UHGV virus genome: UHGV-1963518
Length of the DNA stretch: 16,197 nucleotides
Direction: 5' to 3' (one strand)
Source of the DNA: a virus
Both the position numbers and the translations under genes were made by a program. How positions within the stretch are numbered: the first letter of the stretch is position 1; each line of letters starts with the position of its first letter. Shown here one piece after another: positions 8,277 to 8,592 of the stretch. The notes beneath the pieces were generated by a model that did not search any database, was not told the DNA's origin, and saw nothing but the letters and a program-made list of their open reading frames with translations.

Positions 8277-8507
8277 TGTTCATCACTGTTCACCCTGTAA
8301 TAAATGTGTTCTATATCAGTTGGTTATAGGGTGAACAGTTATTCATGAACTGTTCATCAAACTATTCACTGTTCACCTTTTTGATTATTTGTTGAGCTTT
8401 AAGGGTGAACAGTGGTGAACAGTTGGTGAATAGTTTTTGTGAAACTGTTCACCCCTTAACACAATGAATTAAAAGGAGAAACGGAAAAAGGTGAACAGGT
8501 GAAGGGT
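8277..8507. repeat. Replication origin candidate: cluster of GGTGAACAG / CTGTTCACC iterons with adjacent AT-rich stretch
   Basis: Perfect 9-mers at 8287-8295, 8330-8338, 8369-8377, 8404-8412, 8414-8422, 8445-8453 and 8490-8498. Degenerate copies at 8277-8285, 8350-8358, 8425-8433 and 8499-8507. Both orientations. AT-rich AAAATGCAAAAATTTTATTTTATTG follows at about 8510-8535. The core TGTTCACC is the P4 type-I iteron octamer. Confidence 0.65.
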
Positions 8508-8592
8508 TAAAATGCAAAAATTTTATTTTATTGCTGTGAGGTAAAGGCTGTGACAACGAAACACACAAAAAACACAATCTCACGCCCTTGAT

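What the first reader, a model, noticed from the sequence alone, without database searches (positions are those of the whole stretch)
8277..8535. Dense iteron cluster of the P4 type-I octamer immediately downstream of the primase/helicase
At least seven perfect and four degenerate copies of GGTGAACAG / CTGTTCACC lie in about 230 bp, in both orientations, followed by an AT-rich stretch that could act as an unwinding element. Phage P4 ori and crr are built from the octamer TGTTCACC bound by the alpha protein. Finding the same octamer next to a shorter (604-aa) alpha-like protein suggests a P4-type initiator/origin pair in a non-canonical satellite.
Basis: partly seen in the sequence, partly recalled or inferred. 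Interest (0 to 1): 0.6.

Follow-up and report, generated by a model that had tools for sequence, protein, structure and literature searches.

The report
P4-type replication origin of a PICI
The repeat cluster is almost certainly the replication origin of a common E. coli phage-satellite island, built from the same 8-base binding sites as satellite phage P4; this kind of origin is already known, so it is a well-supported but fairly ordinary finding.

Summary
The intergenic region 8263-8592 holds 7 perfect, 3 one-mismatch and 2 two-mismatch copies of CTGTTCACC in both orientations (8276-8506). Only 0.47 octamers are expected by chance in the whole window.

The adjacent 604-aa protein is 50% identical to P4 alpha over its helicase and its C-terminal origin-binding winged helix (PDB 1KA8, E 1.6e-23). 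Parts of the cluster align with the P4 ori core (78.6%) and with a P4 crr unit (80.7%).

The element is not P4-like. It has no Sid, Psu, Delta or epsilon. It is a Gram-negative phage-inducible chromosomal island (int, int-alpA RNA, alpA, pri-rep, PerC). Fillol-Salom et al. 2018 already described an iteron origin directly 3' of pri-rep in such islands and tested it in EcCICFT073.

New support comes from 30 relatives that fall into five iteron classes. The class tracks the origin-binding domain (28/30) better than the helicase (19/30). The class-specific residues lie in a putative wing, aa 565-582. The recombination breakpoint against a class-B relative falls there.

Two corrections apply. The protein lacks P4's zinc ribbon and catalytic Toprim motifs, so "primase" is unsupported. 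There is no second crr-like cluster.

Verdict: new member of a known kind; the same origin is present in about 13% of complete E. coli genomes.

The parts
8276..8506 (.). Iteron array: 12 copies of CTGTTCACC/GGTGAACAG. Perfect: 8286+, 8330-, 8369+, 8404-, 8414-, 8445+, 8490-. One mismatch: 8276+, 8350+, 8425-. Two mismatches: 8362+, 8498-.
   Evidence: Iteron columns are 70% invariant against 44% for spacer columns in 7 relatives (Fisher p = 6e-5).
8263..8592 (.). Whole intergenic origin region between the initiator gene and the next small ORF (8593-8793).
   Evidence: It is present in 687 of 5426 complete E. coli genomes. No terminator-like site was found, and promoter-like sites do not exceed chance. 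No Rfam family matches here.
8403..8471 (+). Module homologous to the P4 ori core: three tandem GGTGAACAG-type iterons, then one inverted iteron and CCCTTAAC.
   Evidence: blastn against P4 9309-9378: 78.6% identity, E 1e-5 against the phage collection. Alignment A1.
8445..8535 (+). Module homologous to one 120-bp P4 crr unit: an iteron, a 36-bp A-rich spacer, inverted iteron(s), then an A/T tract.
   Evidence: blastn of 8448-8503 against P4 crr: 80.7% identity, E 8e-3. Alignment A1. The same 35-36-bp spacing occurs in P4 ori and crr.
8499..8535 (.). A/T-rich tract after the last iteron; one of three candidate DNA-unwinding elements.
   Evidence: GC is 25% at 8500-8539. Among the least stable 30-mers of the region. 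An A/T run sits at the equivalent position in P4 ori and in both crr units.
8295..8329 (.). Internal AT-rich spacer between the first iteron pair and the first inverted iteron; an alternative unwinding element (PICI model: iteron sets flanking an AT-rich region).
   Evidence: 8298-8327 is 77% A+T and as unstable as the distal tract. The EcCICFT073 origin has the same architecture. Fig. 2a legend of PMC6092414.
6448..8262 (+). 604-aa initiator ('Pri-Rep'): Toprim-like N-terminal domain, D5_N, SF3 helicase, C-terminal origin-binding winged helix.
   Evidence: Pfam D5_N, DUF5906 and Pox_D5. 50% identity to P4 alpha aa 304-776. 51% identity to EcCICFT073 Pri-Rep.
7933..8223 (+). Origin-binding winged-helix domain (aa 496-592).
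   Evidence: PDB 1KA8 (P4 alpha origin-binding domain), E 1.6e-23. 47% identity to P4 and 34% to EcCICFT073.
8140..8193 (+). Putative wing (aa 565-582, GREYMKRKTKHGLRSNVI): the segment that differs between iteron classes.
   Evidence: All 16 class-A proteins, P4 included, share K[RK].TK.G.[RQ][ST]N; other classes differ. Nucleotide identity to the class-B relative L015 falls from about 90% to about 50% from nt 8148 onward. The assignment as 'wing' is inferred from winged-helix topology (PMC2777425).
6448..6819 (+). N-terminal 124-aa domain that replaces P4's zinc ribbon and Toprim primase; Toprim-like fold without catalytic motifs.
2555..2752 (+). alpA regulator of the island.
   Evidence: Pfam Phage_AlpA, E 2.4e-19.
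220..1434 (+). Tyrosine integrase of the island.
   Evidence: Pfam integrase domains. 42.5% identity to P4 Int.
37..59 (+). attL: the 3' end of a tRNA gene.
   Evidence: Rfam tRNA match at 1-50, cut off at its 5' end. Repeated at 14713-14735.
14713..14735 (+). attR repeat; the island spans about 14.7 kb.

Best explanation
Region 8263-8592 is the vegetative replication origin of a roughly 14.7-kb Gram-negative phage-inducible chromosomal island (PICI).

Proposed mechanism. After helper-phage induction, AlpA-driven transcription of the rightward operon produces the 604-aa initiator. Its C-terminal winged-helix domain, probably through the wing at aa 565-582, binds the roughly 12 TGTTCACC iterons arranged in both orientations. 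The bound protein oligomerises and melts one of the adjacent A/T-rich tracts. Its SF3 helicase then self-loads and unwinds the DNA, as P4 alpha does at P4 ori. The protein has no recognisable active primase, so priming is probably supplied by the host (DnaG).

The origin combines, in one compact locus, sequence modules that P4 has separated into ori and crr.

Shown here:
- the repeats and their conservation;
- homology of both the protein and the DNA to P4;
- covariation between the origin-binding domain and the iteron sequence;
- the PICI gene context.

Shown by others for homologues:
- P4 origin-binding domain structure;
- EcCICFT073 pri-ori-dependent plasmid maintenance.

Inferred only:
- binding in this particular element;
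- the melting site;
- the source of priming.
For: 1. The repeats are far above chance and tightly clustered.
2. Iterons are conserved while spacers drift in 7 relatives down to 70% identity.
3. The adjacent protein carries the P4 alpha origin-binding domain (1KA8, E 1.6e-23) and the SF3 helicase.
4. The octamer is identical to the type-1 repeats annotated in P4 ori and crr. There is direct DNA homology to the P4 ori core and to crr. In P4, crr also lies immediately downstream of alpha.
5. In 23 further Enterobacterales loci, 22 have a repeated 7-mer (4 copies or more) in the 420 bp downstream of the homologous gene. One of these, L021, was not assigned to a class.
6. The classified loci fall into five iteron classes. 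The class is predicted by the nearest neighbour in the origin-binding domain (28/30) but not by the helicase (19/30) or D5_N (19/30).
7. The window protein and E. ruysiae L015 have 98% identical helicases but different wings and different iterons. The DNA breakpoint lies at the wing-coding segment.
8. EcCICFT073 has the same architecture with TGTCTACC iterons. Its pri-ori segment supports plasmid maintenance, and maintenance is lost on deleting rep and reduced on deleting ori (PMC6092414).
9. The gene context is a PICI: int, int-alpA RNA, alpA, pri-rep, ProQ and PerC, all rightward.
Against: - There is no experiment on this element.
- The unwinding element cannot be assigned; three tracts are equally AT-rich, and none is extreme for this window.
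- In P4, the cluster at the equivalent position (crr) is a cis-acting enhancer rather than the initiation site, so position alone does not prove that initiation occurs here.
- In EcCICFT073, deleting ori reduced plasmid maintenance but did not abolish it.
- The lack of a primase domain leaves the priming step unexplained.
- I assigned the iteron classes myself from top k-mers. Three loci (L021, L034, L011) were left out of the covariation test. The sequences are phylogenetically related.
Confidence: 0.85

Rival explanations
1. The cluster is a crr-like cis enhancer or copy-number-control (handcuffing) site. The real initiation site lies elsewhere in the island, as in P4, where crr sits directly downstream of alpha and ori lies 4.7 kb away.
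For: The position is the same as P4 crr. 8448-8503 aligns with a crr unit.
Against: There is no second iteron cluster in the 14.7-kb island, only two isolated octamers. The region also contains the P4 ori-core module. In EcCICFT073 the equivalent pri-ori segment alone supports plasmid maintenance.
Confidence: 0.07
2. The repeats are operator sites through which the initiator, or another island protein, regulates transcription of the downstream genes (8593 onward) or of its own gene, with no role in replication.
For: The region is intergenic and lies between two co-oriented gene blocks. A weak promoter-like site lies at 8550-8578. Plasmid iterons often also autoregulate (established knowledge).
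Against: Promoter-like sites do not exceed chance: 2 found against 1.2 expected. The binding domain is the origin-binding domain of a helicase-initiator. The homologous sequences in P4 are annotated origin repeats. The EcCICFT073 ori deletion impairs replication. A regulatory side-function is not excluded.
Confidence: 0.05
3. The cluster is a packaging (cos/pac) or partition site.
For: Clustered repeats next to an A/T tract can occur at such sites.
Against: No terminase or ParA/ParB-type gene was found in the island. The repeats match a replication initiator's binding site. They covary with that initiator's DNA-binding domain.
Confidence: 0.02

Closest known systems
Satellite phage P4 ori and crr with the alpha protein (type I iteron TGTTCACC)
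   Same: The octamer is identical and occurs in both orientations. There is DNA homology to the ori core (78.6%) and to the crr unit (80.7%). The iteron - 35/36 bp - inverted iteron(s) - A/T tract module is the same. The cluster sits directly downstream of the initiator gene, like crr. The initiator shares the SF3 helicase (63% identity) and the winged-helix origin-binding domain (47% identity; 1KA8).
   Different: There is a single compact locus instead of the bipartite ori plus crr 4.7 kb apart. The initiator lacks the Zn ribbon and Toprim primase. There is no terminator between gene and iterons (P4 has t-alpha). There is no Cnr, Sid, Psu, Delta or epsilon.
Origin of the E. coli PICI EcCICFT073 (Fillol-Salom et al. 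2018, PMC6092414)
   Same: The element type and gene order are the same. The origin lies immediately 3' of pri-rep. The order and orientation of the iteron groups are the same. The N-terminal domain of the initiator is 81% identical. Function of pri-ori was tested experimentally in EcCICFT073.
   Different: The iteron is TGTCTACC/GGTAGA(C/T)A instead of TGTTCACC. The origin-binding domain is only 34% identical and has a different, shorter wing. This is a different specificity class.
SaPI / Gram-positive PICI origins
   Same: Iterons flank an AT-rich region directly 3' of the rep gene, and the SF3-type Rep self-loads (PMC6092414). The weak helicase match to PDB 7OLA is, from memory, a staphylococcal self-loading primase-helicase.
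   Different: The iterons and DNA-binding domains are unrelated. There is no detectable DNA homology.

Membership tests
P4 alpha-type origin (type I iterons) | Multiple copies of the octamer TGTTCACC in both orientations | tested here: met
   7 perfect octamers plus 5 degenerate copies at 8276-8506. The P4 record annotates the same octamer as 'ori type 1 repeat'.
P4 alpha-type origin (type I iterons) | DNA homology to P4 ori and/or crr beyond the octamer | tested here: met
   8403-8471 against P4 ori: 78.6%, E 1e-5. 8448-8503 against crr: 80.7%, E 8e-3. Alignment A1.
P4 alpha-type origin (type I iterons) | Cognate initiator with the alpha-type C-terminal winged-helix origin-binding domain | tested here: met
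   aa 496-592 against PDB 1KA8, E 1.6e-23. The wing motif K[RK].TK.G.[RQ][ST]N is shared with P4.
P4 alpha-type origin (type I iterons) | Bipartite organisation: ori plus a distant cis-required crr | tested here: not met
   There is only one cluster in the island. The isolated octamers at 7689 and 12150 are not above chance.
P4 alpha-type origin (type I iterons) | Initiator carries a DnaG-type primase (Zn ribbon plus Toprim with catalytic E and DxD) | tested here: not met
   P4 alpha hits Zn_Ribbon_Prim and Toprim_3; the window protein hits neither. hhalign is not significant. The fold is Toprim-like but the catalytic motifs are absent.
P4 alpha-type origin (type I iterons) | Initiator binds the iterons and supports replication | not testable with these tools
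   Supported only indirectly, by covariation between the origin-binding domain and the iteron sequence.
Gram-negative PICI origin (Fillol-Salom 2018) | Origin located immediately 3' of the pri-rep gene | tested here: met
   The first iteron starts 14 bp after the stop codon at 8262.
Gram-negative PICI origin (Fillol-Salom 2018) | Sets of iterons flanking AT-rich DNA | tested here: met
   Iteron groups are separated by AT-rich spacers at 8295-8329, 8378-8403 and 8454-8489 and are followed by 8499-8535. The layout matches EcCICFT073.
Gram-negative PICI origin (Fillol-Salom 2018) | Host element is a PICI: int, alpA and pri-rep transcribed unidirectionally, about 10-20 kb, with specific att sites | tested here: met
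   int 220-1434, int-alpA RNA 1479-1546, alpA 2555-2752, pri-rep 6448-8262, PerC 10019-10306. att repeats at 37-59 and 14713-14735. The pri-ori stretch (window 8100-8800) is 99.9% identical in the ABU 83972 island, which is listed as 'PICI?' in Table S2 of the paper.
Gram-negative PICI origin (Fillol-Salom 2018) | Rep-dependent replication; helper-phage induction and packaging | not testable with these tools
   Shown only for EcCICFT073, whose initiator is 51% identical.
P4-like satellite (SatelliteFinder definition, PMC10085698) | Integrase plus Psu, Delta, Sid, AlpA, epsilon and alpha | tested here: not met
   tblastn of all P4 proteins finds only Int, the C-terminal two-thirds of alpha, and ORF88/AlpA. 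There is no Sid, Delta, Psu, epsilon or Cnr.

The most novel reading that the evidence does not exclude
This locus is the unsplit form of the P4 origin, with the ori-core and crr modules side by side. Because the iteron and the wing motif are the same as in P4, a PICI and P4-like satellites would belong to one replication-specificity group. P4 alpha could then fire this PICI origin and vice versa, giving cross-activation or incompatibility between two satellite families. Specificity would be re-assorted in nature by swapping a small 'wing plus iterons' cassette. In addition, the initiator would be an alpha-family protein that has lost primase activity and depends on host priming, unlike P4, which I recall (not checked here) replicates independently of host DnaG.
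Probability: 0.35. Interest if true: 0.5.

Novelty: new member of a known kind. Interest (0 to 1): 0.3.

Why it matters
The finding assigns a function to a conserved intergenic region that is present in about 13% of complete E. coli genomes. It links the replication modules of two satellite families, P4-like elements and PICIs, at the DNA level. It also gives a concrete specificity code: a wing segment paired with one of five iteron variants. That code could be used to predict cross-talk or incompatibility between co-resident islands, and to engineer orthogonal PICI replicons for the delivery vectors already being built from these islands. It does not reveal a new kind of system.

Tried and rejected
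- **Chance or low complexity.** Rejected by the shuffle tests and the clustering test.
- **Structured RNA.** No Rfam family matches in the region.
- **Promoter or terminator.** Promoter-like sites do not exceed chance and there is no terminator-like site.
- **P4-like satellite membership.** Rejected: no Sid, Psu, Delta, epsilon or Cnr.
- **Second crr-like cluster.** None found.
- **Sequence homology of the N-terminal domain to the P4 primase.** Not significant. Only fold-level Toprim similarity was found.
- **Single-sequence AF2 model of the origin-binding domain.** It failed (pLDDT 36), so the 'wing' assignment rests on winged-helix topology from the literature.
- **Assigning the unwinding element from duplex stability.** Inconclusive.
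- **Literature searches.** Searches for the octamer and for P4 ori2/replicon II returned nothing useful. The P4 review PMC372931 is not held.
- **Defence-system scan.** PADLOC gave no hit for the large unknown ORFs.

Full report
**Observation**

The window contains 9 copies of TGTTCACC against 0.47 expected; 0 of 200 shuffles reach 9. Seven of them lie within 8287-8497. Extended to the 9-mer CTGTTCACC, there are 7 perfect, 3 one-mismatch and 2 two-mismatch copies between 8276 and 8506, in both orientations. Random placement never puts 7 of 9 sites within 211 bp (0 of 200,000 trials).

The array fills a 330-bp intergenic region of 35% GC. It starts 14 bp after the stop codon of the 604-aa ORF 6448-8262. 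An A/T-rich tract (8500-8539, 25% GC) follows the last iteron. Only the coordinate of the isolated GGTGAACAAG is off: it lies at 12150-12159.

**The protein**

Pfam finds D5_N, DUF5906 (SF3 P-loop) and Pox_D5 in the 604-aa protein. Residues 125-594 are 50% identical to P4 alpha residues 304-776. Residues 496-592 match the crystallised P4 origin-binding domain 1KA8 at E 1.6e-23.

P4 alpha additionally carries Zn_Ribbon_Prim and Toprim_3 domains at its N-terminus. The window protein has neither. Its first 124 residues have no family assignment.
- The invariant motif is TEVIIFAGSDAW, with Ala where Toprim has the catalytic Glu, and no DxD follows the third strand.
- hhalign against the P4 primase domain is not significant.

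I conclude that the 'primase' label is unsupported. This is an inference from missing motifs, not a measured absence of activity.

**Direct comparison with P4 DNA**

In the P4 record the type-1 repeats have the same octamer. The P4 crr (4291-4590) lies directly downstream of alpha (4636-6969, minus strand), and ori lies at 9310-9413.
- blastn of the window's intergenic region against 50,697 phage records hits the P4 ori core: window 8403-8471 against 9309-9378, 78.6%, E 1e-5.
- It also hits crr: window 8448-8503, 80.7%, E 8e-3. Alignment A1 shows both relationships.
- All three loci share one module: an iteron, a 35-36-bp spacer, inverted iteron(s), then an A/T run.

The window therefore holds, in one compact locus, sequences that P4 has at two loci. 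No second cluster exists in the island. The two isolated octamers (7689, 12150) are not above chance (P = 0.08).

**What the element is**

The window begins inside the 3' part of a tRNA gene. It carries the int-alpA RNA motif RF02996 at 1479-1546. Its genes include a tyrosine integrase (220-1434), AlpA (2555-2752), AntA, DUF4222, the initiator, ProQ and PerC, all rightward. A 23-bp att repeat (37-59 and 14713-14735) bounds an island of about 14.7 kb.

tblastn with all P4 proteins finds only Int, the C-terminal two-thirds of alpha, and ORF88/AlpA. There is no Sid, Delta, Psu, epsilon or Cnr. By the SatelliteFinder definitions this is not a P4-like satellite. It is a PICI-type element.

Fillol-Salom et al. 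2018 state that in Gram-negative PICIs the origin lies immediately 3' of pri-rep, with iteron sets flanking an AT-rich region. They showed that the EcCICFT073 pri-ori segment maintains a temperature-sensitive plasmid, and that maintenance depends on rep and is reduced by deleting ori. The pri-ori stretch compared (window 8100-8800) is 99.9% identical in E. coli ABU 83972. That island is listed as 'PICI?' in their Table S2.

The 330-bp origin region occurs in 687 of 5426 complete E. coli genomes. No complete genome covers more than 81% of the window, so the island as a whole is a mosaic.

**Comparative test of the initiator-iteron pairing**

- *Conservation.* Seven relatives down to 70% identity, including the Klebsiella 'phage' vB_KppS-Ant, keep the iterons while the spacers drift. 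Iteron columns are 70% invariant against 44% for the rest (Fisher p = 6e-5). The window's two CTGTTCATC copies are perfect CTGTTCACC in most relatives.
- *EcCICFT073.* Its initiator is 51% identical overall: 81% in the N-terminal domain, 53% in the helicase and 34% in the origin-binding domain. Its origin has the same order and orientation of repeat groups but a different iteron, TGTCTACC.
- *Wider survey.* A scan of one genome per species gave 23 more loci in Enterobacterales. Of these, 22 have a repeated 7-mer (4 copies or more) in the 420 bp downstream of the gene.
- *Iteron classes.* Class A is GGTGAACA (window, P4 and 14 others). Class B is GGTAGACA. Class C is GGTAGATA. Class D is GGTGGAGA. 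Class E is GG(T/C)GGACAG.
- *Covariation.* The nearest neighbour in the origin-binding domain predicts the iteron class in 28 of 30 cases. The helicase and D5_N domains each predict it in only 19 of 30.
- *Discordant pairs.* Some pairs have nearly identical helicases but different classes. The window and E. ruysiae L015 have 98% identical helicases and 72% identical origin-binding domains. L026 and L033 have 100% and 81%.
- *Where the differences lie.* They concentrate in aa 565-582. All class-A proteins, including P4, share K[RK].TK.G.[RQ][ST]N there.
- *Breakpoint.* At the DNA level, identity between the window and L015 is about 90% across the helicase. It falls to about 50% from nt 8148 (aa 567) through the origin.

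Because the wing-coding 3' end and the iterons are adjacent, they can be exchanged as one specificity cassette. That aa 565-582 is the wing is inferred from winged-helix topology: the conserved YLYHAY lies in helix alpha-2, followed by recognition helix alpha-3 and then the wing (PMC2777425). My single-sequence model of the domain was too poor to check this.

**Mechanism**

The best-supported reading is an origin at which the initiator's winged helix binds the iterons, the protein oligomerises, an adjacent A/T tract melts, and the SF3 helicase self-loads.

Three tracts are equally unstable (8298-8327, 8502-8531, 8254-8283). None is extreme for this window. The trailing tract is conserved in position in P4 ori and crr. 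The internal tract fits the published PICI picture. The unwinding site is therefore undecided.

There is no terminator between gene and iterons, so transcription probably runs through the origin. Priming is unexplained by the island and is inferred to come from the host.

**Rivals**

- A crr-like enhancer with initiation elsewhere is unlikely. No second cluster exists, and the P4 ori-core module is present here.
- A purely regulatory operator is unlikely given the nature of the binding domain and the EcCICFT073 data, although a secondary autoregulatory or handcuffing role is not excluded.
- A packaging or partition site has no support.

**Novelty and score**

Both parents of this finding are known: P4 type-I iterons bound by alpha, and PICI origins directly 3' of pri-rep. 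This is a new member of a known kind. Three modestly new points were found here:
- DNA-level homology linking a PICI origin to both P4 ori and crr;
- a five-class iteron/wing specificity code with a mapped cassette breakpoint;
- an initiator that lacks the primase motifs.

Interest is 0.3.

Noticed in passing
window 6448-6819 (aa 1-124 of the initiator): The N-terminal domain is the most conserved part against EcCICFT073 (81% identity, compared with 34-53% elsewhere). It has a Toprim-like predicted fold but lacks the catalytic Glu and DxD. The same domain is fused to RepA/AAA_25-type helicases in other E. coli proteins (P0046, P0049, P0085). It therefore looks like a portable module shared by two unrelated helicase types, perhaps a docking domain for a host factor.
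   Followed up: partly
L012-L033, L009, window 8140-8592: There are five iteron classes downstream of alpha-like genes in Enterobacterales. Each class is tied to a distinct wing segment, and the recombination breakpoint lies at the wing-coding 3' end. One MAG carries two islands (L027 class A, L033 class D) with 99% identical helicase domains but different classes, which is consistent with avoidance of incompatibility.
   Followed up: partly
window 14713-15222: After the attR repeat, the sequence repeats the left end of the island: the att site, the int upstream region and the first roughly 112 codons of an integrase (14884-15222, 58% identical to the P4 Int N-terminus). This appears to be the remnant of a second island integrated in tandem at the same tRNA site.
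   Followed up: partly
window 1-50 and 1479-1546: The 3' part of a tRNA gene lies at the window start (the integration target). An int-alpA RNA (Rfam RF02996, 45.5 bits) lies between int and the next ORF.
   Followed up: no
window 3623-5209: A 528-aa ORF follows AntA with no Pfam or PADLOC hit. Only its last roughly 50 residues match phage 'transcriptional repressor' PHROGs. The ABU 83972 and A41 islands have different annotated genes in this interval (YlcI/YnfO and Icd-like genes). It may be a fusion or an over-long ORF call.
   Followed up: partly
window 12339-13937 and the right arm 12000-16197: The right arm is AT-rich (34% GC against 48% for the rest). It holds a 532-aa ORF that matches only phrog_14259 (unknown function) over its full length, with no PADLOC hit. 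It is a likely accessory or defence cargo gene.
   Followed up: no
window 8790-9008: The gene after the origin-proximal small ORF is a 72-aa remnant of the SSB gene that relatives carry intact (about 140-150 aa). It is annotated as incomplete in ABU 83972.
   Followed up: no
L034 (Erwinia rhapontici, 773-aa alpha homologue) and L011 (Pasteurella phage Pmp7): No iteron cluster was detected in the 420 bp downstream of these more distant alpha homologues. Pmp7 has only a few GTGAA-type repeats there. Their origins may lie elsewhere or use more degenerate sites.
   Followed up: no
window 7689-7696 and 12150-12159: Two isolated GGTGAACA octamers lie outside the origin, one inside the helicase coding region. 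They are not above chance (P = 0.08), and their conservation was not checked.
   Followed up: partly
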